Assembly: GCA_049515655.1 (NCBI GenBank)
Contig: JBEKTW010000012.1
Location: 8,904-72,903, forward strand
Source: Bacteroidota bacterium
GTDB lineage: Bacteria > Bacteroidota > Ignavibacteria > UBA10030 > SZUA-254
Direction: 5' to 3'
Length of the DNA stretch: 64,000 nucleotides
The notes beneath the pieces are model-generated. The model saw only the letters and a program-made list of their open reading frames with translations, searched no databases and was not told the origin of the DNA. Shown in pieces: positions 14,506-64,000 of this stretch. Both the position numbers and the translations under genes were made by a program. How positions within the stretch are numbered: position 1 is the stretch's first letter; every line of letters starts with the position of its first letter.

Positions 14506-14532
14506 TAGACCGTAAAACGATTTGAGTCGAAA

Positions 14533-23178: not shown

Positions 23179-23325
23179 GTTCGATGTCCAAAATCCGAAG
23201 CACAAAATTCGAAATCATAAACAAAACCTAAGCTCGAAACCCTAAATTCAAAAAAGGCGGAATTGGGTATTTGGACATTCGGATTTAGGATTTGTTTAGA
23301 GTTTAGTTATTCGGATTTCGGATTT
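23179..23325. repeat. A-tract-phased repeat element (modules X and Y, AAATCCGAA / TTCGGATTT motifs), copy A
   Basis: Module X at 23179-23250 (gttcgatgtccaaaatccgaagcacaaaattcgaaatc...). Inverted module Y at 23277-23325 (attcggatttaggatttgtttagag...). X is homologous to the reverse complement of 31253-31327. Confidence 0.5.
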
Positions 23326-23428
23326 ACTTAAGTTTCACGTATTCGTATGTGGAATTTTTCACTAAAAACTATACCTCTGCGTAAGATCACTAAATGACTT
23401 TCATTCACTCTATCGAAAGGGTCCCGCG

Positions 23429-46869: not shown

Positions 46870-46873
46870 CGAT

Positions 46874-49372: not shown

Positions 49373-49608
49373 CTGATCACCCTCTTTCTTTTGATCACGT
49401 GGAGTCTTCAATTACTCGACCTGAATTTCGATCTGCCGCTGGGAGTCATCGAGAGTTTGAATGGCTCTTGCGATCTGATCGTGTCCTGTCCAACGGCACA
49501 GATTACTGCTAATTGCGGTGTGCATATCGTTTCCCGTGTTTGTGAAGTGCGAGCGTAAGCGAACATTTGGGCGAGGGGATCAAACCACAAACACCGTGTT
49601 AGGCGAGG

Positions 49609-50010
49609 TCATTTGCTCTGCTCAATGTCATCTAAAAAATCCAAAAGATGATCCCGCACAACAACAAATGAAGGACCCCCTCCAAATTCAACCCCTATCG
49701 CCGCTGCCTCCAACACCTCATCCCTTGTAGCCCCAGCCAAAATCGCATTGTTTGCATGGTTGGCAAGGCAAGGGATACATCTTGTAGCTACCGCAGCCGT
49801 GACGGCCATTAGCTCTTTTTGTTTTCTATCTAAAGCACCATGCTTGTAGTAGTGTTTTACCAATTCATTGAAACCATTGTAAAGGTTGGGTGCCTCCTTT
49901 TCCAAACGCTCTCTGTTGGCTTTTCTCTTTTTCAAAATATCTTTCACATTATGCATGGATTTACCTTCTATTTTATCATTCTGGGCCATTACTGCCTTAC
50001 ACTTTACCAT
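49609..50010 (-). CDS. carboxymuconolactone-decarboxylase/AhpD-like family protein (AT-rich insertion)
   Basis: AhpD-like core with CxxC-type motif (AAVATRCIPCLANHAN). About 43% GC versus about 58% for neighbours. Confidence 0.7.
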   Translation of the reverse strand: MVKCKAVMAQNDKIEGKSMHNVKDILKKRKANRERLEKEAPNLYNGFNELVKHYYKHGALDRKQKELMAVTAAVATRCIPCLANHANNAILAGATRDEVLEAAAIGVEFGGGPSFVVVRDHLLDFLDDIEQSK

Positions 50011-51202
50011 TCAATGTCGCGACGAACGCTGCGTAAAACGCGGCTGCTCGGCTGAGCTGCTCGATTTGACACGCTTCGTTCGGGGCGTGCGCATACAGTT
50101 CATTCCCCGGACCGAGCAGGAAACACGGGATACCGTGCATTCCGGCAATCGCAGTTGCGTTGCTGCTAAACGTCCACATGTCGACGTGAGGATCTTTACC
50201 GAACACTCCAGCGTACACTTCGACGGCGCTCTTGAGAAACGGAGAGTTTGCGTCCAGCGACCACGTCGGATAGTATTTTTCGGTTGGATACACCTTCCCG
50301 GTATATGCAGCGTCCTCGAAAATGAGCACGCTAACCTTCGCATCCTCGTAACCTGCGCGTCTGGCTGCTTCGTACACTTCAGCCACGGTGGTTTCTTTCG
50401 ATTCGTCCTGGGTCAACCGCCGGTCGAGACGGATGCTCGCGCCGTCCGGCACGGCGCAGATTGATGGAGACATGGAGCCGGCTTCAGTGACTGTGATCGA
50501 CCCCTTTCCCAAGAACGGATCGCTCCGCAGCCGCTCATTAAGCCTTTCGATTTCCAGCGCAATGCGCGCGATTTTATAGATGGCATTATCGCCGCGCTCG
50601 GGCGCGGAGCTGTGGCAGCTTCGTCCTTTCACTTCAACGCGCATCTCCATCCGGCCGCGATGACCGCGGTAGATGTTCATGTTCGTCGGCTCCGTAATCA
50701 CCACGAGCTCGGGCCGAAGGTGATCTTCCCTGATGAGGTGCTGCCAGCAGAGTCCATCGCAATCTTCTTCCATCACCGTGCCGGTGAAGTAAAGAGTGAA
50801 CGCGTCATTCAGATTCAGTTCTTTGATGAGCCTGGCCGCGGACAGCATCGCCGCCAGCCCGCCTTTCTGGTCGACAGTTCCGCGTCCCCACACCTTGCCG
50901 TCTGCCACCTTCGGGTCGAATGGGTCGAAGCTCCACTGCCCCCGGTCGCCTGCCTTCACGGTATCAACGTGTCCATCGAAGGCAATAGTTCTTGTTCCAC
51001 TGCCGATGCGTCCGATGATGCTCCCGAGTCCGTCAATCCTGATTTCGTCAAAGCCCACCTTTTCCATCTCTCGTCGGACAACCTGGACCGCCTCTTTCTC
51101 TTTCGACGAGAAGGATGGTGTACGAACGAGATCCATCAGAATCCGGACGGTGTCGTTTTCGATTTCCTTCGCTCGATCGTAAATGGCCTGGTATAAATTC
51201 AT
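49997..51202 (-). CDS. M20-family metallopeptidase/amidohydrolase (YgeY-like)
   Basis: M20 motifs (AFDGHVDTV; GRGTVDQKGG; TGTVMEEDC). Start at ATG 51202 (MNLYQAIYDRAKE); the track extension was rejected. Confidence 0.85.
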   Translation of the reverse strand: MNLYQAIYDRAKEIENDTVRILMDLVRTPSFSSKEKEAVQVVRREMEKVGFDEIRIDGLGSIIGRIGSGTRTIAFDGHVDTVKAGDRGQWSFDPFDPKVADGKVWGRGTVDQKGGLAAMLSAARLIKELNLNDAFTLYFTGTVMEEDCDGLCWQHLIREDHLRPELVVITEPTNMNIYRGHRGRMEMRVEVKGRSCHSSAPERGDNAIYKIARIALEIERLNERLRSDPFLGKGSITVTEAGSMSPSICAVPDGASIRLDRRLTQDESKETTVAEVYEAARRAGYEDAKVSVLIFEDAAYTGKVYPTEKYYPTWSLDANSPFLKSAVEVYAGVFGKDPHVDMWTFSSNATAIAGMHGIPCFLLGPGNELYAHAPNEACQIEQLSRAAAFYAAFVATLNGKV

Positions 51203-51225
51203 TCTTCCCGGGTTACTCTTCCCTC

Positions 51226-51687
51226 TCACTTTGCCGCATCCTTGATCGCTTCGACAATCTGAACGTAACCGGTGCACCGGCAGAGATTGCCCGAGATAGC
51301 GATTCGAATGTCCTCTTCGGAAGGATGGCCGTTCTTATCCAGCAATGCTTTCGCACTCATTAACATTCCCGGTGTACAGAAGCCGCAATGTGCTGCATCG
51401 TGGTCCATGAAAGATTCTTGAAGCGGGTCGAGTCTACCGTCCGAGATCAAACCCTCCACCGTCAGGATTTTTTTGCCGTCAATCTGAGGCGCGAGCACAA
51501 GACACGAATTCACGGCTGCTCCGTCGAGCAGAACCGTGCAGGCGCCGCATTCCCCCACTTCGCAACCGCATTTCGTTCCGGTAAATCCGAGTTCATCCCG
51601 CAGAATCTCAAGCAGCGTTCTGTCGGGGAAAATCGAGAGCACATATTCCCGACCGTTGATGGTTGTATGGATTGGGACTTGGGGCAT
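51226..51687 (-). CDS. molybdenum hydroxylase [2Fe-2S] small subunit (XdhC/CoxS-like)
   Basis: Plant-type ferredoxin motif CGCEVGECGACTV. Second cluster motif CGFCTPGMLMS...NLCRCTGY. Confidence 0.9.
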   Translation of the reverse strand: MPQVPIHTTINGREYVLSIFPDRTLLEILRDELGFTGTKCGCEVGECGACTVLLDGAAVNSCLVLAPQIDGKKILTVEGLISDGRLDPLQESFMDHDAAHCGFCTPGMLMSAKALLDKNGHPSEEDIRIAISGNLCRCTGYVQIVEAIKDAAK

Positions 51688-51887
51688 CAACTTGAAGAAT
51701 TGGAATGATTGGAATGATTCCAGAGATTATTCCTTCCCTTTTCAAATTTGCGAAGGTATTTCATATTGTACTCAAATCCTTCGGCGATATTGCTGGAAAT
51801 CGACATCGCCGTGTATATGTCGACCGCAACCTGCATCGCTTTCCGCCAAACTTCTAAGTCTTCAATCTTTCCAATCTTCCTAATCAC
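51687..51887 (-). pseudogene. decayed four-helix-bundle (IVS-protein family) gene remnant, copy 3, exactly filling the FAD-subunit / 2Fe-2S gap
   Basis: 66 aa: KIEDLEVWRKAMQVAVDIYT...SISSNIAEGFEY retains the family N-terminus and the SNIAEG motif but has lost the middle and the C-terminal helices. Flanked by inverted repeats gaagaattggaatgattggaatga (51693-51716) and tcaatctttccaatcttcc (51856-51880). Confidence 0.45.
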
Positions 51888-52741
51888 AATCTACACCCCT
51901 CCAGCGCCCGCCTGACCAAAACACCAATGACCGGTTCTTTGTATTCGGTTGACCAGCGTCTGCCGGTTTCCGAAATCATCAACTCCGAGACCTTCTGCCC
52001 CGCGGCTGCGAACAGTTTTTCCGAAGGTTTTTCCCCTATCAGCATTTTTTCCGCCTCATCGGCTCTTCTCCACTTCGAAAATGCAGCTCCGGGAGCAATA
52101 CGGGCGTCGACGATTTTCCCCTGTTCATTCTGTTCAATCACGGCGGCCACGCTCAATCGCGCGATGGAGAGCGCGTTCCGACGACCGAGCTTAATGAAGG
52201 CACTCCGGGCTTTTTCAGAAAGTTTCTGGAATCGGATTTCCGTCAGGAGTTCGTCTGGCCGGGCGTTTGTTACATACGGCCTCACAATCAATTCATCAAT
52301 TCCCATTTGCCGGCTCCCGCGCTTCGATTTCAGCGTGACACGGGCGCCAAGGGCAATAAGCGGGGGTACGGTATCGGCACAGACGGCGGCGTTCATGATG
52401 TTGCCGCCGATCGTGCCGCGATTTCTGATCTGCGGGGAACCGATGAGGGAAGCGGCAGCTGCAAGTAATGGCGCGTACTGATGGAGGATGGAGGATTGGA
52501 GCAACAGCGTGTGTGTCGCGAGGGGTTTGATGCGGACAGACCCGTTCTCCAGATTGATCGTGCCAAACTCATCAAGGAATGAGATATCAATGACCGCTTT
52601 CGGCGGCTTGCCATCGGGCCGACGGAGCTCCAGGAGCACGTCCGTGCCGCCGGCAAGGATACGCGCATCAGGACCATATTCAGCGAGCACTGAACACGTT
52701 TCGTCGATTGAACCGGTCCGTATGTAATCGAATGCCCTCAT
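51884..52741 (-). CDS. molybdenum hydroxylase FAD-binding subunit (XdhB/CoxM/YgfM-like)
   Basis: ILAGGTDVLLELR FAD-binding signature and a CO-dehydrogenase-flavoprotein-like fold. ATGA overlap with the Mo subunit. Confidence 0.85.
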   Translation of the reverse strand: MRAFDYIRTGSIDETCSVLAEYGPDARILAGGTDVLLELRRPDGKPPKAVIDISFLDEFGTINLENGSVRIKPLATHTLLLQSSILHQYAPLLAAAASLIGSPQIRNRGTIGGNIMNAAVCADTVPPLIALGARVTLKSKRGSRQMGIDELIVRPYVTNARPDELLTEIRFQKLSEKARSAFIKLGRRNALSIARLSVAAVIEQNEQGKIVDARIAPGAAFSKWRRADEAEKMLIGEKPSEKLFAAAGQKVSELMISETGRRWSTEYKEPVIGVLVRRALEGCRL

Positions 52742-55143
52742 CTTTTCTTTGAGCTTCGTTTCCTACCCGGTGGCTTCTTTCTTGGCCGCAACGGACGCTG
52801 AGGTTTCTGTCTTGTTTTACTGCTGTCAAGATTGAACTCGTCCTTCTTCACCGACCCGCGTTCACCCTTCCTCGTGAGCTTATGACCGAGGAGGACTCTC
52901 TCAAGGTTCGCGGGTAACTCGTCTATCCGTTTGCCCGTTGCGTTGTAGATTGCATTGACGATCGCCGGCGCGGCAAGTTCGTTCGCCGGTTCACCGATCG
53001 ATTTCGCGCCAAACGGTCCCGCCGCATCCTCATTCTCTATGACGATCGGCGTTATCTTTGGAACGTCCATCGACGTAGGAATCAGGTACTCATCGAAGTT
53101 CAGTTGCTTGGGAATTCCACCTTCAATCTCGAATTCTTCCAGCAGTCCGTAACCGAGTCCCATGGCAACCCCGCCGTAGAACTGGCCGAGCACTGTCGAC
53201 CGATTGATCGCTTTGCCGACGTCATGAGCGGAAACAACATTGAGAACATCCACTTTACCAGTCTCCGTATCGACCTCGACTTCCGCAACGTTTGTCCCGT
53301 AGACGAAGGTGAAGTACGCTTCCCCGTGTCCGTCTTCTTCATGCCAGGTTGTTCGCGGCGACTTGTACCATCCGAAGCCGTACATCGGCTTGCCCTGGTT
53401 GAAACATGCAGCGGCAAGCTCGGAAAATGATGCGAGTCTCTGCGAGCTCTTTTTGTCGATGAGATAATTCCCGGCGAGGTCCAGATCCTGCGCATTGCGG
53501 CCGGTCATTTCCGCCCCGGCGCTTAGAAGAGTCGCGCGGACTATCTCCGCCGCATGCTTTGCTGCCGAACCGCCCATGATGGTTCCGCGGGATGCCACTG
53601 TCGGACCGGAATCCGGAACCCTGCTTGTGTTCGTGTTGAGGAACAGAATACGCTCCATCGAAATGCCGAGAACCTCAGCCGCGATCTGCGACATTTGCGT
53701 TTGCGCGCCCTGTCCCATGTCCGTTATGCCGGAAGAAACAATGACACTGCCGTCGGTCTGCACGGATACGATTGTCCCGGCGGCATCCGCTCCTTCCGCT
53801 CCGAGTGAAACACCGCGGTAGCTGCAGGCAAGACCGATTCCCCTGCGTTTCGGGGCTCTTGGAGCAGTCCGGTACTCCTTCCACTTCTTCAGGAAATCCG
53901 ACGCCTCCGCCGCTTTGGTCAGAGCTTCCTTAAGACTCACAATATGGTCCAGCTTTTGACCCGTGGCCGTCACGGCCCCGCGCTCAAATCCATTCTGAAG
54001 ACGGATCTCGAGCGGATTCTTGCCGACCCGCTCCCCGAGTTCATCCATCATCGATTCAATCGCGAAGTTCACCTGCGGTGAGCCGAAGCCGCGCATGGCG
54101 CCGGTGTAATTGTTGTTCGTGTAGACCGCGTACACATCGGTCTTGACATTCTCGCAGTAGTACGGCCCGGTTGCCTGAACAACGGACCGCCACGTCACGA
54201 ACGGACTCATGGAGGCGTACGCACCGCCGTCAGCGATGACGCGGGCTTCCATCGCCGTGATCGAGCCGCCGTTCTTCGCTCCCCACTTGTAGTACATCGT
54301 GTAGGGGTGGCGTTTATAACTTTCAAGCATCGACTCTTCACGGGAATTTACCATTTTCACCGGCTTCCCGGTCTTCAGGCACAGCAACGCCGCCCGGCAG
54401 CACATCGACGTCATCACCTCATCCTTGCCGCCGAAGGAGCCGCCGAGAGTCGCCTGGATGATCTGAACTCTATTCAGGTCGAGATTCAACGCGGCGGCGA
54501 CCGACCTCCGGCTCGAGAAGAGATTCTGCACCGAGCCGACAATTCTCACGCCGCCATGCTCGGCGGGTTCGGCCAGAACCGCCTCCGGCTCGATGTAGGA
54601 ATGTTCGACGAATTGTGTCTTGAATTTCTTCTCGATAACGAAATCCGCTTCGGCGAATCCCTTTCCGGTGTCGCCCTTGCGAACCTTGTGATGAACAAAA
54701 GTATTATCTTCCCCGTGGATCCTGGGAGCATCCGCGGTCATCGCAAGCTCCGGGTCGGAAACGACGGGCAGTTCTTCGTATTTCACTTCAATGAGAGTCA
54801 GCGCGCGGGCCGCGATCTTTTCACTTTTCGCCGCAACCAACGCAATGCCGTCGCCTAAATAACGAACTTTCTCCCGGGCGAGTATCGCCTGGTTCTTCAC
54901 GACGATTCCAAACGCTCTTTCGCCCGGAATGTCCTTTGCGGTGAGAATGGCCTCCACGCCCTCGAGCTTCTCGGCCTTCGAAACATCGACAGACAGGATC
55001 TTCGCGTGCGGATGCTTTGCACGAAGGACTTTCCCATACAGTTGGTGCCCGGCATTATAGTCAGCGGCAAATTTTGCTTTGCCGGTGACCTTTCCGAGAG
55101 CGTCCACTCTGCGTTCAGGTTTTCCGATGATCCTGTTTGCCAT
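52738..55143 (-). CDS. molybdopterin-binding large subunit of a xanthine-dehydrogenase-family hydroxylase (XdhA/XdhD-like) with a Lys/Arg-rich C-terminal tail
   Basis: 801 aa. Ald_Xan_dh_C N-terminal region (GKPERRVDALGKVTGKAKFAAD...) and Mo-cofactor domains. The last about 45 aa are ...RKGERGSVKKDEFNLDSSKTRQKPQRPLRPRKKPPGRKRSSKKR. Confidence 0.9.
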   Translation of the reverse strand: MANRIIGKPERRVDALGKVTGKAKFAADYNAGHQLYGKVLRAKHPHAKILSVDVSKAEKLEGVEAILTAKDIPGERAFGIVVKNQAILAREKVRYLGDGIALVAAKSEKIAARALTLIEVKYEELPVVSDPELAMTADAPRIHGEDNTFVHHKVRKGDTGKGFAEADFVIEKKFKTQFVEHSYIEPEAVLAEPAEHGGVRIVGSVQNLFSSRRSVAAALNLDLNRVQIIQATLGGSFGGKDEVMTSMCCRAALLCLKTGKPVKMVNSREESMLESYKRHPYTMYYKWGAKNGGSITAMEARVIADGGAYASMSPFVTWRSVVQATGPYYCENVKTDVYAVYTNNNYTGAMRGFGSPQVNFAIESMMDELGERVGKNPLEIRLQNGFERGAVTATGQKLDHIVSLKEALTKAAEASDFLKKWKEYRTAPRAPKRRGIGLACSYRGVSLGAEGADAAGTIVSVQTDGSVIVSSGITDMGQGAQTQMSQIAAEVLGISMERILFLNTNTSRVPDSGPTVASRGTIMGGSAAKHAAEIVRATLLSAGAEMTGRNAQDLDLAGNYLIDKKSSQRLASFSELAAACFNQGKPMYGFGWYKSPRTTWHEEDGHGEAYFTFVYGTNVAEVEVDTETGKVDVLNVVSAHDVGKAINRSTVLGQFYGGVAMGLGYGLLEEFEIEGGIPKQLNFDEYLIPTSMDVPKITPIVIENEDAAGPFGAKSIGEPANELAAPAIVNAIYNATGKRIDELPANLERVLLGHKLTRKGERGSVKKDEFNLDSSKTRQKPQRPLRPRKKPPGRKRSSKKR

Positions 55144-55177
55144 ACTTGTTATTCATTGATTTGCCGGGCGTCATGAA

Positions 55178-56509
55178 TCAGATTCTTGCCCACAGTTTCT
55201 TGGCAGCATTCCGGGCCTTTTCATAGATAGACGGCACATCCTGCCCGACGATCTCGCGACCCTGTACAACCCACTTCCCGCCTACCATCACCGATTCAAC
55301 CATCGACGACTGCATGCCGAAGAGGAAATGACCCGGAAGATTCGCCCCGTTCAGAGGACTAGGGGATTCATACTCCATCACAACCAGGTCTGCGACCGAA
55401 CCCTTTTCCAGCGTTCCGAACTTCTGTGAAAAAATCTCCGACACCATTTCCTGATTGCTTTGAAGAAAAGAAGTGATTGGCTTAGCGGATTGAGAAATCC
55501 CGGATATTCTCCCGCCTCGTGCTTCTTTCTTCTTGTCTCTTTCTTCTTGATTCCAGAAAAAACCAACCCTGGCCTCTTCCAGCATGTCGGCCGGAAAACC
55601 GTCGGTACCCAGGCAGGCGCGATCACCGAAAAGACGCAGCGGGGCATGTCCGACACGGTTGTTCATGTTCGACCTCGGGTTGTGCACCAACCAGCATCGC
55701 GATTCCCGGAGTTTCAAGAAATCCCGTACTCCCACGTGAATGCAATGCGCAAGAATCGATTTGTCTCTCAAGATCCCGCACTCCGAGAGACGGCCGACGA
55801 CACTGCACTCGTAGTTTTCCTCCGCGTCGACACTATCGCACGTGTCTTCAGCGACATGGATATGAACACCCATTTTATTTTCAGACGCCATATCGCCGCA
55901 CAGGCGGAGAGAATCATTGCTCAAGGTGAACGAGGCATGAGCTCCGACCATGCCGCGGAACCGGGGATGTTTCCTGTTCGCCCGAATAAAGCGTTCGTTT
56001 TCTTTCAGTCCCTGGTCGCGCTCTTTCTTGCCGCCCCTGTCCGTCACTTCATAACAAAGAACGCCGCGAAGCCCGGCTTCTTCCACGGCCTGTTTAATAA
56101 TGTCGAGTGAACCACCGATGGCACTGGGTGATGCATGGTGGTCCACGAGCGTCGTCGTGCCGCAGCGCGCAGCTTCAACGGCACCGACGAGCGCACTGTA
56201 ATATATCGACTCGTCGTCGAGAGCCCGGTCGAGTTTCCACCATACCTTTTGGAGAATTTCGAGAAAGTTCGCTGGCTGAACCTTCGGCCCCGGCATGCCG
56301 CGGGAGAGTGCGGAGTAAAGATGCGTGTGCGCGTTCACCAAACCGGGGAGAACGATCCTGCCTCTGAGGTCAAGTCTCTCCTCATCATGGACCTGGGGCA
56401 GGTGCTTCCCCCGTTCCGTGATGATTCCATTCCGAATGCGAAGGTCGGTCGCTTCGATTGAGGGAGGATTCAGGACAGCGCTTCTGGCGTTCTTTATGAG
56501 AAGGTTCAA
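55178..56509 (-). CDS. ssnA: SsnA-family amidohydrolase, paralog 2 (closest to E. coli SsnA)
   Basis: LPGLVNAHTHLYS, LQKVWWKLDRALDDESIYYSALVGAVEAARCGTTTLVDHHASPSAIGGSL and HNPRSNMNN line up block by block with SsnA. TTG start. Confidence 0.85.
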   Translation of the reverse strand: MNLLIKNARSAVLNPPSIEATDLRIRNGIITERGKHLPQVHDEERLDLRGRIVLPGLVNAHTHLYSALSRGMPGPKVQPANFLEILQKVWWKLDRALDDESIYYSALVGAVEAARCGTTTLVDHHASPSAIGGSLDIIKQAVEEAGLRGVLCYEVTDRGGKKERDQGLKENERFIRANRKHPRFRGMVGAHASFTLSNDSLRLCGDMASENKMGVHIHVAEDTCDSVDAEENYECSVVGRLSECGILRDKSILAHCIHVGVRDFLKLRESRCWLVHNPRSNMNNRVGHAPLRLFGDRACLGTDGFPADMLEEARVGFFWNQEERDKKKEARGGRISGISQSAKPITSFLQSNQEMVSEIFSQKFGTLEKGSVADLVVMEYESPSPLNGANLPGHFLFGMQSSMVESVMVGGKWVVQGREIVGQDVPSIYEKARNAAKKLWARI

Positions 56510-56930
56510 GTGGATTATCTAGTTGTCGATAAGGGCTTGCTTCCGAACAACTTTCGGTAGTCATGCGATGAACCGCAAACAAAATGAATCAGACCGGTGC
56601 CGTACGGGTCGGTGGAGCTCTCGATCTTCATAACCCATTGTACTGACAAGCTTTGTACCACCGATTTCCCGGCCCGATGAAGAGAAAATGCCTTTTCGAC
56701 GAGGCAGACGGCGATTTTAGTCGCGCTGAAGGGATTCGATCACCGCCCGGAGCTATTGGCTATCAGTTTTGATATGGGACAAAAAAGACTTTTTCAGTTG
56801 TGATAACGCAGGATCAAGAGAATTGATGGGAGGTCCCTCTTCTCCTCTTGAAACTCCGAACGTGTTCCAAGTTCCGTCGTGCTCTCGCTCTTTGGTTCGT
56901 CGGTTCCCGACTGACCGACGTTCGCTGCTC

Positions 56931-58079
56931 TTATTGAACCGTAAAAGGAATCGATGCCTCTGTCTTTTCCCATTTGAGGCTGAGAGTTCCGTGGGAGCCA
57001 TCGGCAGTTATGCTGATCGTGAACCGCTCTGTGAAATCGTCAACATGTTTTACGTCGAGCGGAAGTCGTGCAAGGTCCTTCGACTGGTCGTAATCTGTTC
57101 CCCACTGACCGTGCTGATGATTGATGATCAGTTTCCAGCCGTCCTGTGAGGGGAGCACGAACAACGAATAGGTTCCGGCAGGTACCACGGTTGTACCAAA
57201 CGCCAGGTCTTTGCCGATGATGAGCTGGGTTGCGGCATTCGCACCGGTACGCCAGACGACATTCCACGGAACCACCTGACCGAAAATCGTACGTCCCCGC
57301 GCGGAAGGACGTCCGTAGTCGACAATAACGCTGGCTCCGTTGACCATAGCCCGCGTGGAATCTCTTGGAGAGAGAGGTCCGAGGGCACCTCCGGAACGCT
57401 CACGATCGGCGAAAGTCTTCGCGACCTCTTTGACATCAATATTGGCGGCACGCGTGGCAACGAATTTGTCCGTCGTTTCCGTCATATCGAATTTTTCAAG
57501 GAGGGCGTCCTTTCCGACGACGGCATGGAGCGGACCGAAGTCTCCGCCCGGGTTCAGAAGTTCCACCTTGCCCGGGAAACTTCCTTGAATGTCATAGTGC
57601 ATAACCTGCCTGCCGCCGAGTATTCCGAATCCCTTTTTCTTATCCATCATCAATGCATGCTGGATGGCGGCCTGCCAGCCGCCGAAAATATCGCCAAAGA
57701 ACGGAAAAGGACGGTCGGATGCAGCGACGGCGTATTTTGTCGTGACGGTGTCCTGTCTTGACACGATGTGAACGCTGTCATTTCCATACGTATAATCGCG
57801 TTCCGAAAAAATGGGATTGCCATAGCGTTGGGATGCCACATGAAAGCGCATGAGGCCGCCATCGGGTCCAAAAGTCCCCGAGTACTCGCGAATGGTGGTC
57901 TTCGGTGCGCGTACGACACTCGTCCCGTGCAACCCCCCACCATCCATAAAGAATTCTTCAACGGCGATCGTGTCCCGGCCAAGTGTGACCACGAAAAAAC
58001 CGTGCTGTTTCGGCTGTCCGATTGCAGCAATGGTCGAGAAGCCGGCAACGACTGCGAACAAGATGAATAAACGATTCAT
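56931..58079 (-). CDS. secreted protein with C-terminal DUF2911-like domain
   Basis: Signal peptide from the internal ATG (MNRLFILFAVVAGFSTIAAIG). C-terminal VVPWNVVWRTGANAATQLIIGKDLAFGTTVVPAGTYSLFVLPSQDGWKLIINHQ resembles DUF2911. Confidence 0.55.
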   Translation of the reverse strand: MNRLFILFAVVAGFSTIAAIGQPKQHGFFVVTLGRDTIAVEEFFMDGGGLHGTSVVRAPKTTIREYSGTFGPDGGLMRFHVASQRYGNPIFSERDYTYGNDSVHIVSRQDTVTTKYAVAASDRPFPFFGDIFGGWQAAIQHALMMDKKKGFGILGGRQVMHYDIQGSFPGKVELLNPGGDFGPLHAVVGKDALLEKFDMTETTDKFVATRAANIDVKEVAKTFADRERSGGALGPLSPRDSTRAMVNGASVIVDYGRPSARGRTIFGQVVPWNVVWRTGANAATQLIIGKDLAFGTTVVPAGTYSLFVLPSQDGWKLIINHQHGQWGTDYDQSKDLARLPLDVKHVDDFTERFTISITADGSHGTLSLKWEKTEASIPFTVQ

Positions 58080-58398
58080 ACTATTACCTTTCTTAAGGAT
58101 GCAAGAATGATTTAGGACATAATATATCGATAATTTGGTCAAAATGTAACACCTGGAGCGCTCGAAAAGATTCCGGCATTCCCCTCCCGGTTCCGGCAGG
58201 GTTTCGGAGGAATCTGGCCCTTCGGGGAAGAATGGCAAATTGATTCTTGCAGCATTTTCACCTTGTAAGGAAGGAGATTTTTTGTTACATTTGTATCGCA
58301 TCGAGATCACCGATCGAGATCTCGATCTGCTGTAGTAATATGGAGGGCTTCTCGTGGGGGTTTTGCTACCCGGAGGTCCTCAAACCACGGAGAAGATA

Positions 58399-58436
58399 GC
58401 CCGGATGGCGGAATTGGCAGACGCGCTAGATTCAGG
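58399..58436 (+). pseudogene. tRNA-Leu(CAG)-like 5' half (acceptor stem, D-arm, anticodon stem-loop) lacking a 3' half
   Basis: GCCCGGA-UG-GCGG-AAUUGGCAGA-CGC-G-CUAGA-UUCAGGG matches E. coli tRNA-Leu(CAG) up to about position 38. No complementary anticodon-stem strand, variable arm, T-arm or 3' acceptor (UCCGGGC) follows within 1.7 kb. Confidence 0.45.
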
Positions 58437-58962
58437 GATGAAACCTCCTCCGCGAAAACCTTTCAAGCTAACTCACCTTCCAAGAAGTTTCACGTTCGCA
58501 TCTCCATCCGTTCCTAAAATGGGACTAGCGGACCTGGCATTCGTGTCATGGAATGTGTCCAAATTCGGGAATCCCACTCTAACATATTCGGAGCGACCCG
58601 AATTGTAAAACCAAAACTTGCATTTCACATGCGACATTTCGCGTCCGAGATGAATATTGACGTATTCTTTTACCATTCGTATCGAATCCGCCCTATCATG
58701 AGCAAATGGGTTTCCGCCTACGGTTCCCTTATAGGAATCATCTGCGAGACACCTGAATGAAACAATGAGAATTGAAAATAGAATTCTACTAGTCATTGCA
58801 TCTCCTACAAGAAGTTTCCATCTCAATGATAAATACGAAACTATATTTTGTCTAAATGGATTGATCAGTACTGCTACTCCGGAGGTGTTGGTGGTTTCGG
58901 TTCGATGCTTGCACGTCAGGTTGGGCACCTGGTTAGGTGGCCATCTAAAAGCCATCGTTTGA

Positions 58963-59529
58963 TTACCTACTGACTGATTCATATTCAGATCCGACCATTA
59001 GATCCATTGGATCCATCGAGACCTTGACGCAAAGGATTTGGAATATCGCCTTAGCATCCTCGAGGTAAATTTTCGCATTCCGGAAGTTTATCTCCTTTTC
59101 CCAATTGGTCATAGGCATTTGGGGGCACTCACCTTCTCGAAGAAACTGAGTACTCTCTGCTGTCATAGATTCCGTTTTGCCATGAGCAAGCGCATCGCGG
59201 AGTCGAAACATACGCTTAAAAGTTTGAAACGGTCTTTTACTAAAATCAATCTTTAGGCCAAATAGGTTGGCTAATAAGTCGAGCTTATCTGGAGGAGACA
59301 ATTTACGTTCAACGGAAGACCAAAACGTAGTTCTATTGGCTCCGACGTGATTGAGAAAAGCCTCGACAGTAAATGCAGAGAAGACCATGGAAGCGGAGAG
59401 CATGAGAGTGCTACCCGCATCTGTCTCCTTAGCTCGTTCATAACATTCGTAACTGACGGTTCGTAAGCGCGCGAAAGTATATACCGTCCTACGTGCACTC
59501 GTATGAACGCGTCTTTTATTAGTTTTCAT
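58963..59529 (-). CDS. hypothetical protein in an AT-rich islet, possible HEPN-like (R-x4-H) nuclease
   Basis: Internal ATG gives MKTNKRRVHTS...FKRMFRLRDALAHGKTES..., which contains an R-x4-H-G motif. AT-rich promoter-like sequence upstream. Function speculative. Confidence 0.35.
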   Translation of the reverse strand: MKTNKRRVHTSARRTVYTFARLRTVSYECYERAKETDAGSTLMLSASMVFSAFTVEAFLNHVGANRTTFWSSVERKLSPPDKLDLLANLFGLKIDFSKRPFQTFKRMFRLRDALAHGKTESMTAESTQFLREGECPQMPMTNWEKEINFRNAKIYLEDAKAIFQILCVKVSMDPMDLMVGSEYESVSR

Positions 59530-59648
59530 TATTGATACTTGATTACGTAAAATAATGGTTGTGGCCGCCGAACGAACCGGAGCTATGCTGCAACGAATTT
59601 GCCGACAGATATTTCCGTCTCGCTTGCGCCGCTGGTTTGGCAGCCCCA

Positions 59649-59981
59649 TTATTTATATAATGAAATATTCCATGGTGATTTATAATCTGTTCGCGTTGCC
59701 TTCCACCCACGTTTTAATTGCCCAAGTTGGATTATACTACTATCGAAAGCAACAAGATCTCTCAAACTCGATTCGACCGCTAGATCGATCCCTAACATCT
59801 CATTGGATAGAAATTGCCAATCTCCTTCTTGATCATGAAGTACGAAAAGAATAGGTCTTTTTTTATCGATAACTGATTGTTGTGTCACAACTATTGTTGA
59901 TGGCGGATCTTGGAATGACCATTCTGAAGTACTGGCACAACCAATGAGCAATGTTATCAAGAGTAACAGTCGTCGTTTCAT
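59649..59981 (-). CDS. small lipoprotein, immunity-protein-like
   Basis: Lipobox LLITLLIGCAS. The ILFVLHDQEGDWQFLSNE motif is reminiscent of DUF2185/Imm-type immunity proteins. About 43% GC. Confidence 0.45.
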   Translation of the reverse strand: MKRRLLLLITLLIGCASTSEWSFQDPPSTIVVTQQSVIDKKRPILFVLHDQEGDWQFLSNEMLGIDLAVESSLRDLVAFDSSIIQLGQLKRGWKATRTDYKSPWNISLYK

Positions 59982-60149
59982 TCGTTCTCCATTCTAAGCT
60001 TACTTAATGGACCGGAGCTAAGCTGCGATAACGGCCCATAGCGGTGACAACTGATTCGGCATCATAGATCGCTTGATGCATCGGGAGTTCTTTTTGCTCC
60101 TGACTTTTTCCTTTTTAAAGTGGTTAGGCAGCAGTGCCCGCGTCTTTCT

Positions 60150-60956
60150 CTAAGGTACAAGAAAACTGACGGTATTGCTCGGTATTGTTCCTATGTTTGG
60201 ATAGATTGTTTTTCCCGTAGCTGGGTCGGAATAACCTGTATCGAGAAAGTTGGTTCCATCATCGAAGTAAGTGCTGTTCGCGGAAGCATAAGCTATCAAG
60301 TATACGGTCGACCCACTGGAAATTCCGGCGCGATTAAATGTGCTGGAAGTAATGCTCGTTGAAATCGCAGTGGTTGATGTACCGGAACTCAAATAGGAAA
60401 AAAGAAACGTCGTAGGGTTAGAGGAGACCGAACTGCTCGTTCCAATGAAGAAGCGCACGTAATGGACATAACCTGCAGAAGGAGCTGAAGAAATTGAGCC
60501 AGAGATTGTTACGCTGCTTGTTGTGGGAGTTGCGACGAGACTGGATACTGTGAACGCCGGAATTGCCATTAAGAATTGACTGCGCCCATAAAACAGATCC
60601 CCGCCGCCAGTAAATCCCAATCCGATTCGTTTGTAAACCCCAAAGCCAGTTTTTGAGAAAGTGAGTGTGTAAGATCCAGTTGCGAGTTCCGTGATTGTCC
60701 ATTTCCCGCTAATGTCGCTCGTTGTTGCTTTGTCCGAGTTCTCCACGGTAATCGTAACAGTAGAATTGTCAGGTAACTTACGACCGTAATCGTCATACAG
60801 TGTAACATAGCCGATAAGATTGCCCGTCAACTTCGGACCAGCCGGACCCGTATCTCCCTTGAATTTGTCGCAAGAAGAAGAGCAAATAGAGAAAAACAAT
60901 AATACTAGCGACATCGCCGCTGGTGTGCCGAGCAGTCGTTGAACTGTGTGTTTCAT
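60150..60956 (-). CDS. Ser/Thr-rich lipoprotein with a short collagen-like G-x-y stretch
   Basis: Start at internal ATG (MKHTVQRLLGTPAAMSLVLLFFSICSSSC). GDTGPAGPK triplets. Long S/T-rich low-complexity regions. Confidence 0.5.
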   Translation of the reverse strand: MKHTVQRLLGTPAAMSLVLLFFSICSSSCDKFKGDTGPAGPKLTGNLIGYVTLYDDYGRKLPDNSTVTITVENSDKATTSDISGKWTITELATGSYTLTFSKTGFGVYKRIGLGFTGGGDLFYGRSQFLMAIPAFTVSSLVATPTTSSVTISGSISSAPSAGYVHYVRFFIGTSSSVSSNPTTFLFSYLSSGTSTTAISTSITSSTFNRAGISSGSTVYLIAYASANSTYFDDGTNFLDTGYSDPATGKTIYPNIGTIPSNTVSFLVP

Positions 60957-61075
60957 AGGAACCTTCCTTTCTTTGTGGAATGCGATGATCAAGGCACTGC
61001 TGCCTAACGGATGGCGGCTCAACTGCCCTACTGCGCATGCCCTATAGCATGTCGCTGTGTTGGGATGTGCTGCAC

Positions 61076-62923
61076 TCACTTCAATAGCAACATTTTCTTA
61101 ATGTCTGTGAACTTCCCTGCCTGCAATCTGTAGAAATATATCCCGGATGGAACATTCGATGCGTCCCAGGTTACTGATTTGAAACCGGGCTCTAGCACAC
61201 CATTCACTAGCGTCGCAACTTGCTGACCAAGTAGATTGTAGATATTAAGAGTCACGGCACTCGTTGTCGACAACTGGTAACGAATCGTAGTCGAAGGGTT
61301 AAATGGCTCAGGATAGTTCTGTTCAAGCGAAAAGACTTTCGGCAGGTTGGCTGCCACCTTTTCATCGGGCGCAGGAGGCGGCATTTCGCTGGTAGACAAT
61401 ATCTTTATTCGATTCGTCTTCAGCATTAATGTGGATGACAAAGAGAGTATCAGTCTACCACTTTGATTAACTTTGACCCAATATCCTTTGCCTGGCTGGA
61501 TCGTGTCAACAGAATGGTATCCAGAACTGTAACCGAAGAACTCTGACGTGATCAATCCACTAGGGCTGCTGGCGATATTTGCAACTCGCATAGGAGAACC
61601 GATTGAACCAACTAAATTCCATCCGGTAACCACGGAGATTGACTCGCTCTCGGCAGGTAACCCCGGCGGAAAGGTCACGGTTTGTGGTGCACCGAACTTC
61701 AACCAATATCCGATACCGCCAGATAACGTATCCTTCGCCGCATAGCCATTGCTATACTCGTAAGCCTTTCCGACCGATGAAGGGAAAACAATATTCGCGC
61801 GATAGTCTCGCAGCGACTCAGGAACAGACACAAGGTTCCAACGAGTTTGGTAGGATGTAGAAAGAGGTTTCTGACCATAAATATAAATACCTGACGCACT
61901 GCGGTCCGAATTTACACCGATGTACACTCTGTCGTACATCGTATCGATAACAATCGAAGTTACCATACCTGAATCCGGCAAGCCATTGCTGAAATCATCC
62001 CAATGGGCAGCACCATCAGTGGTGCGAAAGAGCATCTTGCTTCCAACGGTATAGTTCGAGGTGCCAAGAAACATCTCATCGGGATTTCTTGGATTCATTG
62101 CAAATGCCCAAACATCCAGATTTCCCGGCCCGAGACCGTTGTTCATCGAAACCCATGTTTCTCCACCATCAGTCGATCCTGTCACGCCGCAGCCGGCAGA
62201 AGCCATGTATACATGACCACTATTCCTTGGGTCCACAAAAATTGTGCCGCCCCATCCCTGACATTCTGAAGGTTGTCGAGTCCACGTCGTTCCCAAGTCT
62301 GTACTCTTGAAAATCAATCCATTTGAGTCCGCAATTCCAAAGAGGAAGCTCCCCTGTGCCGCATACAAAATACTATCATCACTCGGGAAAATGGTCATAG
62401 ACATTATGCCGATATCAAAGGTTTGTGTCCAGTGGAGTCCTCGATCTATTGTCCGATATAGTAAAGGCCATACCTCCATGTAAACGACGCTCGTGTTTTT
62501 CGGATCTATTTCAATTGACACCCCGGATGCGTATCCTTCCCAGGAGAACAGGGTCTGCCAGCTTTGCCCTCCGTCTGTCGTCATCAACGATGTGTTACAG
62601 GGAGGGTCGCAAGTGGGGTCAGTTGTTTTTACGTATAGGATTTTGGAGTTCCCAGGATCAATCTTGAAATTCGTGACAAGGACGGATCCGAAGACTGACA
62701 CATTGGACCAGCTTTCGCCCCAGTTCGTGCTCAAAAGAAACATCGATTGACCAGATTCGGCATCCTCGCAACTGGCGAACAGCGTATCAGGATGTTTGCG
62801 ATATACATCCATTGGCCACGGCCAGACGCCTTCTGTCCCCCCTGCCCGTCTCCAAGACTGTTCCTGCGAGATAGCCATGCTGCAAACGAGCAATAAAGTC
62901 CAAAGTATTAGCAAGCGTTTCAT
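61076..62923 (-). CDS. BNR/Asp-box repeat protein with T9SS C-terminal sorting domain
   Basis: Signal peptide. Asp-boxes (TTDGGQSW, STDLGTTW, STDGGETW, TTDGAAHW). C-terminus FSLEQNYPEPFNPSTTIRYQ...GIYFYRLQAGKFTDIKKMLLLK. Confidence 0.8.
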   Translation of the reverse strand: MKRLLILWTLLLVCSMAISQEQSWRRAGGTEGVWPWPMDVYRKHPDTLFASCEDAESGQSMFLLSTNWGESWSNVSVFGSVLVTNFKIDPGNSKILYVKTTDPTCDPPCNTSLMTTDGGQSWQTLFSWEGYASGVSIEIDPKNTSVVYMEVWPLLYRTIDRGLHWTQTFDIGIMSMTIFPSDDSILYAAQGSFLFGIADSNGLIFKSTDLGTTWTRQPSECQGWGGTIFVDPRNSGHVYMASAGCGVTGSTDGGETWVSMNNGLGPGNLDVWAFAMNPRNPDEMFLGTSNYTVGSKMLFRTTDGAAHWDDFSNGLPDSGMVTSIVIDTMYDRVYIGVNSDRSASGIYIYGQKPLSTSYQTRWNLVSVPESLRDYRANIVFPSSVGKAYEYSNGYAAKDTLSGGIGYWLKFGAPQTVTFPPGLPAESESISVVTGWNLVGSIGSPMRVANIASSPSGLITSEFFGYSSGYHSVDTIQPGKGYWVKVNQSGRLILSLSSTLMLKTNRIKILSTSEMPPPAPDEKVAANLPKVFSLEQNYPEPFNPSTTIRYQLSTTSAVTLNIYNLLGQQVATLVNGVLEPGFKSVTWDASNVPSGIYFYRLQAGKFTDIKKMLLLK

Positions 62924-62953
62924 TGCATCATCTATTCTCCGTGCTGTGGATGA

Positions 62954-63880
62954 TCACTTCAGAAGCACCATCTTCTTAATATCCGTGAATCGGCGTCCTG
63001 AGCTTGCCGAAGGATTGCCTGCCTGCAATCTGTAGAAGTAAACTCCACTCGGTAGATCACTCGCGTCGACTATTCGAGAGTAATTTCCTGGTTCTTGCTC
63101 TCCGTTTACGAGAGTTCGCACTTCCCTTCCCAGCAGATCGCACAGCTTCAAGGTAACGAATGACTTTTGTGGAAGAGAGTATGAGATTGTGGATGTTGGA
63201 TTAAATGGGTTGGGGTAGTTTTGAGCGATTGAAAACTTTTCAGGCATCATGAATCGATTTTGTTCAACACCAACTATCCCATAGCTCACGCCGTTGATCC
63301 TCGCTCCCCTCAGTTGATAGTTGAATGCCTCGAGTGAGCCATACCCAATCATTCCAATACTGTCTGCAAATGCTACGGTTGTGAACCAGTTGTGGATGTT
63401 TGTAAATGTGCAACAAATACGGCTTCTCGAATACAAGGTGTCCTCCATACACCCATCGTGTATCCATTCCCCGGCAGTATCTCCGGGCGAAGATGCAAAA
63501 TCAAAAATAGCGTTCTCCATCCGGCTGGATGTATCATAACCCAGGAATTGTCCATGCTCTTCTCGAAAATACCCGCAGGAAAAGAACGGAAACACGTCAG
63601 CACAATTTGACGAGAACACAGAATAGGTCTTACCATTCGCCATCGTAGTATCCCGAAGGATTTCGACCTGGAGAATAATGTCCGGGCGCATGTATTCTAC
63701 GTACTGCCAAAGATTCCCGGGTTGAAAAGGATATTCAAGAACCTGTGAATTCGAAGTTCCTTGACCAATGAGCCAGCAAGCGAGCACTCCGAAGATAAAC
63801 CTCAGAACCCCTCCTCCCACACCAATTGGAATCGTCCCTGCAACTGCCCATTGCAGCGCAAGTATCATCAACCGCTTCAT
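62954..63880 (-). CDS. secreted protein with T9SS C-terminal sorting domain
   Basis: Signal peptide/TM. C-terminus FSIAQNYPNPFNPTSTISYS...GVYFYRLQAGNPSASSGRRFTDIKKMVLLK. Confidence 0.75.
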   Translation of the reverse strand: MKRLMILALQWAVAGTIPIGVGGGVLRFIFGVLACWLIGQGTSNSQVLEYPFQPGNLWQYVEYMRPDIILQVEILRDTTMANGKTYSVFSSNCADVFPFFSCGYFREEHGQFLGYDTSSRMENAIFDFASSPGDTAGEWIHDGCMEDTLYSRSRICCTFTNIHNWFTTVAFADSIGMIGYGSLEAFNYQLRGARINGVSYGIVGVEQNRFMMPEKFSIAQNYPNPFNPTSTISYSLPQKSFVTLKLCDLLGREVRTLVNGEQEPGNYSRIVDASDLPSGVYFYRLQAGNPSASSGRRFTDIKKMVLLK

Positions 63881-64000
63881 CTCTTTGCCAAGGTTGTGAA
63901 CGCCCCGATCGAAAAAGCCATAAGACTACCGCGACCTCTAGTTGAACGACAAAACCCGCCGTGCCATATACTTCAGCACAAGCGGGTTCTTTTTCGAACT

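What the first reader, a model, noticed from the sequence alone, without database searches (positions are those of the whole stretch)
58399..58436. tRNA-Leu(CAG) 5' half without a 3' half, at the edge of an AT-rich islet
The 38 nt match a class-II tRNA-Leu through the acceptor 5' strand, the D-arm (AAUUGGCAGA loop) and the anticodon stem-loop (UUCAGGG), then lose all tRNA character. The break sits at position 37/38, the canonical site of archaeal-type tRNA introns and also a common integrase target. No T-arm or 3' acceptor (UCCGGGC) occurs within 1.7 kb. Integration normally preserves a functional tRNA and leaves a 3' duplicate, so a lone 5' half suggests a disrupted or decayed tRNA gene, or a rearranged att site, marking the insertion point of the 58.44-60.0 kb islet. 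Immediately upstream (58312-58327) is a perfect 16-bp palindrome GATCGAGATCTCGATC with four GATC sites and an adjacent direct repeat of ATCGAGATC.
Basis: seen in the sequence. Interest (0 to 1): 0.5.

Follow-up and report, generated by a model that had tools for sequence, protein, structure and literature searches.

The report
Broken tRNA-Leu gene at integration hotspot
This is the dead front half of a leucine tRNA gene, cut at the spot where mobile-element integrases recombine; it marks where foreign DNA replaced the rest of the gene, which is an ordinary kind of genomic scar.

Summary
Window 58399-58437 (39 nt, one more than reported) is an exact copy of positions 1-38 of a bacterial tRNA-Leu(CAG). 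The same 38-mer starts intact tRNA-Leu(CAG) genes in 22 reference genomes and about 50 metagenome contigs. No 3' half, intron or complete tRNA exists in the window or in the next ~10 kb.

The junction is not an assembly artefact. Two strains assembled separately share it, and an independent k=31 assembly has a contig that starts exactly 30 nt before the break.

A related metagenome contig (L104) carries the orthologous locus: the same DUF2911 gene and intergenic region, 86% identical over 687 nt. Homology to the window stops exactly at tRNA position 38. There the tRNA is intact, and the remnant of a tyrosine integrase gene lies 17 nt past its 3' end. Related integrases sit beside this tRNA in three other contigs. 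Another lineage (L084 versus L106) has the same break.

The fragment is therefore best read as a scar of integrase-type recombination at the anticodon loop that did not restore the gene. It abuts lower-GC cargo genes: an ORFan, a HEPN protein and a small lipoprotein. This is a known kind of feature and of modest interest. The nearby palindrome is not conserved.

The parts
58399..58437 (+). tRNA-Leu(CAG) 5' fragment, canonical positions 1-38: acceptor 5' strand, D-arm, anticodon stem 5' strand and the full 7-nt anticodon loop TTCAGGG. It is a pseudogene, not a complete tRNA.
   Evidence: Exact match to intact tRNA-Leu(CAG) genes. ARAGORN and Rfam call no tRNA here. Identical in both strains and in the ortholog L104.
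58437..58438 (.). Breakpoint. Homology to the intact orthologous tRNA ends between tRNA positions 38 and 39, at the 3' edge of the anticodon loop.
   Evidence: BLASTN of L104 against the window: 86.5% over 687 nt, ending at 58437; alignment. Logan contig L035 starts at 58408, exactly 30 nt (k-1) before the break, and matches the window over 4617 nt.
58080..58398 (+). Native upstream region of the tRNA gene, shared with the divergent DUF2911 gene. It is homologous to the region upstream of the intact tRNA in L104.
   Evidence: Logan contigs L003 and L004 end at 58428, 30 nt into the tRNA.
58262..58301 (+). 40-nt block fully conserved between the window and L104. It contains TTG-N20-TACATTTG, which resembles a Bacteroidota-type promoter, about 100 nt upstream of tRNA +1. 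It is the likely tRNA promoter (inferred).
   Evidence: Alignment. The promoter reading rests on my own knowledge of the Bacteroidota -33/-7 consensus and was not tested.
58438..58472 (.). Spacer immediately after the break. It has no tRNA character and is the most strain-variable stretch: about 10 differences in 35 nt, including a 6-nt block replacement.
58473..58796 (-). orf107, a small ORFan with a signal-peptide-like N-terminus. Its 3' end faces the tRNA fragment.
   Evidence: Its only matches among 5.8 billion proteins are its own cluster, from JGI and Logan. No Pfam, NCBIfam, PADLOC or PHROG hit.
58963..59532 (-). Stand-alone HEPN-domain protein (189 aa), full length.
   Evidence: 1073 representative homologues aligned end to end. 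R112-x4-H117 is invariant or nearly so. Family members hit several HEPN Pfam families. Weak HEPN hits for the protein itself.
59649..59981 (-). Small lipoprotein-like protein (110 aa). Its homologues lie in variable or mobile contexts.
   Evidence: Homologues at 47-94% identity. Their contexts include a tRNA-adjacent island with two integrases in L061 and a PLD/SHOCT/integrase-fragment region in L058.
56931..58079 (-). DUF2911 gene, the conserved native left flank used to find the second strain, independent assemblies of the junction and homologous DUF2911 loci in relatives. The unbroken ortholog L104 was found instead by the 38-mer scan, but it carries the 5' end of this gene.
58312..58327 (.). 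It is not conserved and is probably incidental.
   Evidence: Imperfect in strain 2 and absent in L104.

Best explanation
The locus once held a normal, promoter-driven tRNA-Leu(CAG) gene divergent from the DUF2911 gene, as the related contig L104 still does. In this group of FCB-type bacteria, that tRNA is an attachment site for integrative elements with a lambda-type tyrosine integrase.

In the window's lineage, a recombination event within or at the edge of the 7-nt anticodon loop joined the native 5' part (positions 1-38) to DNA carrying no tRNA 3' half. The anticodon loop is the classical overlap region for such integrases. Two routes are possible: an element integrated whose attP did not restore the gene, or the element-supplied 3' half and the adjacent integrase gene were later deleted through the same site.

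What remains is a non-functional 5' fragment, probably still transcribed from its conserved promoter. It abuts lower-GC, cargo-like genes: an ORFan, a HEPN protein and a small lipoprotein. CUG must be read by another tRNA-Leu copy or isoacceptor elsewhere in the genome.

Shown: the fragment, the exact break, the intact ortholog, integrases at this tRNA in relatives, and recurrence of the break. Inferred: that an integrase made this particular junction, the order of events, transcription of the fragment, and the existence of a second functional copy.
For: 1. The fragment is an exact tRNA-Leu(CAG) 5' part and no 3' part lies nearby.

2. The junction is real. Two JGI assemblies that differ by 169 SNPs over the ~17 kb compared share it. 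In Logan run SRR13021855, one contig ends 30 nt into the tRNA and another starts 30 nt before the break and then matches the window for 4.6 kb.

3. Ortholog L104 has the same DUF2911 5' end and intergenic region (86.5% over 687 nt), with homology ending exactly at position 38. Its tRNA is intact. An ORF that ends 17 nt past its 3' end and converges on the tRNA encodes a 64-aa tyrosine-recombinase C-terminal remnant (LLGHLDIRASMIYAKV).

4. The same integrase family is next to this tRNA elsewhere. L115 has a full 383-aa integrase (PF00589, Arm-DNA-bind_2, Int_N) plus an HTH_17 excisionase-like gene. L068 has a 48%-identical integrase beside an intact tRNA. L082 has a remnant.

5. In L115 the host 5' part is followed by a degenerate, in-register 3' half, and ARAGORN calls no tRNA. 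Non-restoring junctions therefore occur with this element family.

6. The break recurs independently. L084 and L106 are 97% identical over 1435 nt, with homology ending at the same position 38. In L111 a 7-nt replacement starts at 38/39. Even allowing that the 38-mer query hides earlier breaks, three of three abnormal copies break within nt 39-42 of 47 possible positions.

7. The literature equates the 7-bp anticodon loop and its flanking stem with the overlap and core sites of tyrosine integrases (PMC8371274). tRNA fragments are described as routine products of integration (PMC4383910, PMC9897764).

8. Right of the break, GC and Leu codon usage differ from the core genes. Homologues of the lipoprotein ride in integrase-bearing islands.
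Against: - No integrase gene or remnant occurs in the window or within 15.4 kb to the right.
- No displaced 3' fragment and no second att copy was found, so the element's far end is undefined.
- The bases right after the break (ATGAA / GTGAA) do not resemble the TCTAG core arm expected of a proper attP.
- The genes further right (T9SS-secreted proteins, a Ser/Thr kinase) look chromosomal rather than mobile.
- The recurrence statistic rests on only three other abnormal copies.
Confidence: 0.6

Rival explanations
1. It is the displaced 5' fragment of an intact island of the minority '5'-fragment' type. In that type the element carries its own promoter and tRNA positions 1-38 in attP. The native 5' part is pushed aside at the island's left end, and a complete functional tRNA-Leu(CAG) sits at the island's right end, more than 15.4 kb downstream.
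For: Islander reports 159 islands with a 5' tDNA fragment against 3760 with a 3' fragment, the 5' fragment lying upstream of the full gene (PMC4383910). The geometry here fits: native upstream flank, fragment starting at +1 and ending at the anticodon loop, foreign DNA to the right. The Logan contig ends imply that the exact 39-mer occurs in at least one other context in the same samples, with a different base before +1 and after position 38.
Against: No tRNA was found up to window-equivalent 73.9 kb, and no integrase in that span. The integrase family seen at this tRNA in relatives sits at the 3' side of a tRNA that keeps its native upstream flank, as in L104. That is the ordinary 3'-fragment type. 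The extra copy of the 39-mer in the samples can equally come from other species, since 22 species share it.
Confidence: 0.15
2. It results from an ordinary deletion or illegitimate rearrangement unrelated to site-specific recombination. One endpoint happened to fall in the tRNA gene, producing a plain tRNA pseudogene.
For: There is no integrase, no att duplicate and no core-like sequence after the break. The genome is plastic here: the 94%-identical DUF2911 relative L030 has a different upstream region and lacks the neighbouring amidohydrolase gene, and the two strains differ by a Sod_Cu insertion.
Against: The endpoint coincides to the base with the 3' edge of the anticodon loop, and the same endpoint recurs in the unrelated pair L084/L106. 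The orthologous site carries an integrase remnant.
Confidence: 0.15
3. It is a functional interrupted or split tRNA. The 5' half would be joined to a distant 3' half by an intron (group I, group II or archaeal type) or by trans-splicing.
For: The fragment ends next to the classical 37/38 intron position. The 39 nt and 28 nt of leader carry no SNP between strains, while both flanks do.
Against: No 3' half exists within about 58 kb upstream or 15 kb downstream on either strand. There is no group I or II intron or other Rfam match. The downstream ORFs are on the opposite strand. The RNA fold of the half plus its downstream sequence is no better than shuffled sequence (z = 0.25). The organism is bacterial. 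SNPs between the strains are patchy everywhere, so the SNP-free stretch is weak evidence.
Confidence: 0.02
4. It is a metagenome assembly chimera, formed at a tRNA k-mer shared by many community members.
For: The 39-mer is identical in many co-occurring species, and it breaks the k=31 Logan contigs on both sides.
Against: Anything sharing the 39-mer should continue with a tRNA 3' half, not with this sequence. The junction k-mers themselves are present in an independent assembly. Two strains with different SNPs on both sides, including at 58438, share the junction. The strain-1 alleles of both flanks co-occur in SRR13021855.
Confidence: 0.03

Closest known systems
tRNA gene (tDNA) fragments at the ends of integrase-borne genomic islands and prophages (Reiter 1989; Williams 2002; Islander, PMC4383910; van der Gulik 2023, PMC9897764)
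   Same: It is a terminal piece of a tRNA gene. The break lies at the anticodon loop, one of the known crossover sublocations. Foreign, lower-GC DNA begins at the break. Relatives use the same tRNA as a site for tyrosine integrases.
   Different: It is a 5' fragment, a minority case (159 versus 3760 in Islander). No full-length partner tRNA, no integrase and no second att copy lies within reach. The gene appears unrestored rather than regenerated.
Gene inactivation by integrative elements without restoration, either off-target events or regulated gene integrity (Mageeney 2020, PMC7192596)
   Same: The target gene is cut by recombination and is not rebuilt from attP. L115 shows an intact integrase-excisionase element beside a non-functional hybrid tRNA.
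   Different: Known cases concern protein-coding genes. Here there is no evidence of reversible excision, and the window lacks the integrase.
pTN3-like archaeal integrases whose attB is the 5' half of a tRNA gene (PMC8371274)
   Same: [quoted passage not shown]
   Different: Those systems are archaeal and restore an uninterrupted tRNA. No such integrase or restored tRNA is seen here.
Split and intron-containing tRNA genes (Nanoarchaeum split tRNAs; archaeal 37/38 introns; bacterial group I introns in tRNA anticodon loops)
   Same: The discontinuity lies at the 3' side of the anticodon loop.
   Different: There is no 3' half, no intron signature and no complementary leader. The host is bacterial.

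Membership tests
Integration-derived tDNA fragment (Islander-type island signature) | The fragment is an end piece of a real tDNA, broken at a recognised crossover sublocation (anticodon loop, T-loop or 3' end). | tested here: met
   Positions 1-38 are exact. Homology with the intact ortholog ends at the 3' edge of the anticodon loop.
Integration-derived tDNA fragment (Islander-type island signature) | A cognate full-length tDNA lies on the same replicon in the correct configuration and orientation. | tested here: inconclusive
   None was found in window 1-64000 or up to window-equivalent 73.9 kb. The rest of the contig and genome could not be fetched.
Integration-derived tDNA fragment (Islander-type island signature) | A tyrosine integrase gene lies inside the interval. 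| tested here: not met
   No PF00589 gene appears among the called genes of L001, L002, L005, L006 or L007. tBLASTn with integrases from L061, L115 and L104 found no remnant.
Integration-derived tDNA fragment (Islander-type island signature) | The same tDNA is used as an integration site by integrases in related genomes. | tested here: met
   There is an integrase remnant 17 nt from the intact orthologous tRNA in L104. Full integrases occur in L115 and L068, and a remnant in L082.
tRNA pseudogene (truncated) | It has clear homology to a tRNA but lacks the elements needed to fold: no 3' anticodon-stem strand, variable arm, T-arm or acceptor 3' strand. | tested here: met
   ARAGORN and Rfam fail to call it. 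The sequence after the break is no more similar to 3' halves than random 47-mers are.
Intron-containing tRNA gene (group I or archaeal bulge-helix-bulge intron) | A 3' exon downstream on the same strand completes the cloverleaf, together with an intron RNA signature. | tested here: not met
   No 3' half within +15 kb. No Rfam intron family was found, even at E <= 10.
Split tRNA genes (Nanoarchaeum type) | A separate 3'-half gene with a leader complementary to the trailer of the 5' half, in an organism with an archaeal splicing endonuclease. | not testable with these tools
   No 3' half in the ~74 kb examined, and the host looks bacterial (T9SS domains). The whole genome was not available.

The most novel reading that the evidence does not exclude
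In this clade of FCB-group bacteria, tRNA-Leu(CAG) may be repeatedly cut at position 38/39 by integrative elements that do not rebuild it (window, L084, L115). Integration would then switch off a tRNA gene, and excision could switch it back on: a tRNA version of regulated gene integrity. Alternatively, the leftover promoter-driven 5' half could serve a purpose, for example as antisense or decoy RNA for the adjacent HEPN RNase module.
Probability: 0.08. Interest if true: 0.55.

Novelty: new member of a known kind. Interest (0 to 1): 0.27.

Why it matters
It matters mainly for annotation and for reading genome plasticity. The fragment pinpoints, to the base, a boundary between conserved chromosome and variable DNA in an uncultured FCB-group bacterium. 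It also identifies tRNA-Leu(CAG) as an integration hotspot for a family of tyrosine-integrase elements in these organisms.

The case shows that lone 5' halves can arise when the gene is not restored. Island finders that expect a full tRNA plus a 3' fragment would miss such junctions. If non-restoring integration at this tRNA proved common and reversible, it would be a new way of modulating decoding capacity. Nothing here shows that.

Tried and rejected
- **Intron or 3' exon.** ARAGORN, Rfam (gathering and E <= 10, including a run truncated at the break), a T-arm/acceptor pattern, and BLAST with 19 real 3' halves all found nothing.
- **Degenerate 3' half after the break.** An in-register TTCAAG looked suggestive, but gapped and ungapped tests against 32 real 3' halves were at background.
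- **Alternative fold of the half with downstream RNA.** z = 0.25.
- **att-like direct repeats of the tRNA part, or of the loop, at the islet's far side.** Only chance-level repeats were found.
- **First metagenome scan.** A locus-specific 24-mer (upstream region plus tRNA start) gave 0 hits, because the collection does not hold the source contig.
- **Synteny through DUF2911 homologues.** Relatives at 94%, 74% and 61% identity have different neighbours and no tRNA. The 87% relative had no DNA on file.
- **Homologous flanks among the 22 genome loci.** None found.
- **orf107 as a truncated gene.** This could not be judged because it is an ORFan.
- **Integrase remnants in the window.** None.
- **Extending the source contig.** I could not go beyond window-equivalent 73.9 kb, because look-ups are restricted to proteins encoded in the window.
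- **Viral contigs.** A scan with a 27-mer from the 5' half gave only intact tRNA-Leu(CAG) genes (two cut by contig ends), about half lying at contig ends. This is compatible with prophage boundaries but involves other taxa.

Full report
**1. What is there**

Window 58399-58436 reads GCCCGGATGGCGGAATTGGCAGACGCGCTAGATTCAGG. It occurs once in the window, with none expected by chance. The same 38-mer is the start of tRNA-Leu(CAG) genes in 22 GTDB species genomes. These are Ignavibacteria-, Bacteroidota-, 'Chlorobiaceae'- and Spirochaetota-labelled MAGs. ARAGORN calls tRNA-Leu(CAG) in 20 of them, and the other two copies run off a contig end.

The 38-mer also occurs in 55 JGI metagenome contigs. 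All but three of these continue with a normal 3' half, one being cut by a contig end. In the intact genes the next base is G, A or T, followed by TCTAG, the 3' strand of the anticodon stem.

In the window the next base is G (58437), followed by ATGAAACC. ARAGORN places the anticodon at nt 35-37, so nt 39 is canonical position 38. The fragment therefore covers positions 1-38: everything up to and including the 7-nt anticodon loop TTCAGGG.

**2. Nothing completes it**

- ARAGORN finds no tRNA in the 64-kb window or in loci that extend the contig to window-equivalent 73.9 kb, in either strain.
- Rfam finds nothing at gathering thresholds. It also finds no tRNA or intron family at E <= 10 around the site, even when the search stretch is cut at the break so that truncated matches are allowed.
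- BLAST with the 3' halves of 19 intact genes gives only 11-15 nt chance matches.
- An in-register TTCAAG after the break looked like a decayed T-loop. However, gapped and ungapped comparisons with 32 distinct real 3' halves are at the level of random genomic 47-mers.
- The RNA fold of the half plus its downstream sequence is no better than shuffled sequence.

Intron-containing and split-tRNA readings are therefore rejected.

**3. The junction is real**

The window is part of JGI contig Ga0427939_0000371. A second assembly from another sample (L001) differs by 169 SNPs over the ~17 kb compared and has the same junction. SNPs lie on both sides of it, including the first base after the break.

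Two Logan assemblies give independent support.
- Contigs L003 and L004 end at 58428, exactly 30 nt into the tRNA.
- Contig L035, from the same run as L003, starts at 58408, exactly 30 nt before the break. It then matches the window without a mismatch for 4617 nt.

Thirty nucleotides is k-1 for a k=31 graph (my knowledge of how Logan contigs are built). On that basis, k-mers spanning the junction exist in the reads. It also means the exact 39-mer 58399-58437 is present in another context in those samples, as expected for a conserved tRNA segment.

**4. The unbroken version of the locus exists**

Among the metagenome hits, L104 (Ga0209777_10000733) has an upstream flank that aligns with the window from inside the DUF2911 gene, through the whole intergenic region, to tRNA position 38. 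The alignment is 86.5% identical over 687 nt and ends at 58437.

In L104 the tRNA is intact. An ORF that ends 17 nt beyond its 3' end, on the opposite strand and converging on the tRNA, encodes 64 aa...LRREEILRLLGHLDIRASMIYAKV.... It is 39% identical to the C-terminus of the L115 integrase and 60% identical to a similar remnant in L082. This is a tyrosine-recombinase remnant.

Nothing to the right of the tRNA in L104 (integrase remnant, a cyclase, a 267-aa protein) is found in the window or its extension. The tRNA is therefore the edge of synteny.

A 40-nt block (58262-58301) is perfectly conserved between the two lineages. It contains TTG-N20-TACATTTG, which resembles the Bacteroidota promoter consensus (my knowledge; not tested). 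The fragment probably keeps its promoter.

**5. This tRNA is an integrase target in the group, and the same break recurs**

- L115 has the 5' part of the tRNA, then a degenerate 3' half that is still in register (CAGCTTCAAATCC against CAGGTTCAAATCC), which ARAGORN does not accept. Next comes a full 383-aa integrase (PF00589, Arm-DNA-bind_2, Int_N) ending 60 nt from the discontinuity, followed by an HTH_17 excisionase-like gene and further element genes.
- L068 has a 48%-identical integrase and excisionase beside an intact tRNA.
- L084 and L106 are the same locus in two samples, 97% identical over 1435 nt. L106 has the intact tRNA. L084 has only the first 39 nt, with homology ending at the same position 38.
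- In L111 the seven bases after position 38 are replaced.

My 38-mer query cannot see breaks before nt 38. Even so, the three abnormal copies it found all change within nt 39-42 out of 47 possible positions.

The literature describes the 7-bp anticodon loop and its flanking palindromic stem as matching the overlap region and core sites of tyrosine integrases, with cleavage bordering the loop (PMC8371274). It treats tRNA gene fragments as routine by-products of integration (PMC4383910, PMC9897764). In Islander, 3760 islands have a 3' fragment and 159 have a 5' fragment.

**6. What lies to the right**

Three minus-strand genes follow the break.
- orf107 is an ORFan.
- A 189-aa protein belongs to a large uncharacterised family with 1073 representative clusters. 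It has a conserved R-x4-H motif, and family members hit several HEPN Pfam families. It is an intact stand-alone HEPN protein.
- A 110-aa lipoprotein-like protein has homologues in variable contexts. One is an island next to tRNA-His/tRNA-Glu with two integrases (L061). Another is a region with PLD, SHOCT and an integrase-fragment gene (L058).

GC is 0.40-0.45 across these genes and stays below 0.50 to about window-equivalent 68.9 kb, against about 0.54 for the rest of the window. Leu codon usage also differs: CUG is 14% of Leu codons here against 27% in the core genes. No integrase or remnant is present, and no att-like repeat was found.

**7. Interpretation**

The best-supported account (confidence about 0.6) is this. 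A native tRNA-Leu(CAG) gene, which is an attachment site for a family of integrative elements, was recombined within or at the edge of its anticodon loop. The 3' half was not restored. Either the incoming DNA lacked a usable copy, as in L115, or the element-supplied 3' half and the integrase were later removed through the same site. This left a dead 5' fragment next to cargo-like genes.

The rivals are as follows.
- It is the displaced fragment of an intact 5'-type island whose complete tRNA lies beyond the sequence I could reach (0.15).
- It is a plain deletion whose endpoint fell here by chance (0.15).
- It is an assembly chimera (0.03).
- It is a functional split or intron-containing tRNA (0.02).

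Because CUG is the second most used Leu codon in the core genes, another tRNA able to read it must exist elsewhere. This could not be checked.

**8.

The palindrome GATCGAGATCTCGATC is present. It carries a mismatch in the second strain and is absent from the L104 ortholog. It is not a conserved element.

**9. Verdict**

The interpretation as a disrupted tRNA or att-site scar is supported. The islet boundaries, the 37/38 intron analogy and the significance of the palindrome are not. This is a new example of a well-known kind of feature. It is somewhat unusual in being an unrestored 5' fragment, and it is useful as a marker of an integration hotspot. It is not a new mechanism.

Noticed in passing
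window 60123-60138 and 60993-61008: A perfect 16-nt inverted repeat (GTTAGGCAGCAGTGCC / GGCACTGCTGCCTAAC) brackets essentially the whole CarboxypepD_reg-like gene. One arm lies just past the stop codon at 60150, the other just upstream of the likely start (MKHTVQ, about 60956). A perfect 16-mer pair is unexpected by chance in 6 kb. It could be an invertible gene segment.
   Followed up: no
window 59571-59591 and 60006-60026: A 21-nt direct repeat (AACGAACCGGAGCTATGCTGC / AATGGACCGGAGCTAAGCTGC, 86%) lies just upstream of two minus-strand islet genes, the HEPN gene and the lipoprotein gene. It may be a shared regulatory motif.
   Followed up: no
L111 1943-2028 (FWPV01002676.1): A tRNA-Leu(CAG)-like gene in which the 7 nt after position 38 (TCTAGTC, the 3' anticodon-stem strand) are replaced by GAACGAT while the rest is normal. 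ARAGORN then calls it tRNA-Pro(AGG). The discontinuity starts at the same 38/39 boundary as in the window.
   Followed up: partly
L084 (Ga0335085_10295755) versus L106 (Ga0335080_10113987): An independent lone 5' half of the same tRNA. The two contigs are 97% identical over 1435 nt, up to tRNA position 38. L106 then has the intact tRNA, and L084 has unrelated sequence with a terminator-like hairpin.
   Followed up: partly
L115 3050-5818 (Ga0335081_10058622): An integrative element abuts the tRNA-Leu(CAG) 5' part. It has a degenerate in-register 3' half, a 383-aa tyrosine integrase, an HTH_17 excisionase-like gene and two further genes. Related integrases occur in L068 (intact tRNA), L082 and L104 (remnants).
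   Followed up: partly
window 58963-59532 (-): The 189-aa HEPN protein belongs to a large family (1073 representative clusters at E <= 1e-3, mostly 180-200 aa). The family has no Pfam model of its own. W71, K83, P101 and H117 are invariant, and R112 nearly so.
   Followed up: partly
window 46750-64000 versus L001: Differences between the two strains are strongly patchy. Blocks with 5-10% divergence (for example 54.5-55.1 kb, 58.25-58.53 kb and 59.65-59.95 kb) are separated by kilobases with no SNP. This suggests recombination mosaics, or assembly consensus switching between strains.
   Followed up: partly
window 14000-24000: A second lower-GC block (0.43-0.48 against about 0.54) occurs elsewhere in the window. 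It was not examined.
   Followed up: no
L030-L033 (Logan; 94%-identical DUF2911 relative): In this close relative, the region upstream of the DUF2911 gene diverges about 85 nt from the start codon and has no tRNA. The amidohydrolase gene between DUF2911 and the xanthine-dehydrogenase-like gene is absent there. All four contigs end at the same GC-rich hairpin.
   Followed up: partly
L036-L054 (IMG/VR): In viral or prophage contigs carrying a 27-mer from the tRNA-Leu(CAG) 5' half, about half of the tRNA genes lie within 150 nt of a contig end. This is compatible with tRNA-Leu(CAG) being a frequent prophage boundary in other taxa.
   Followed up: no
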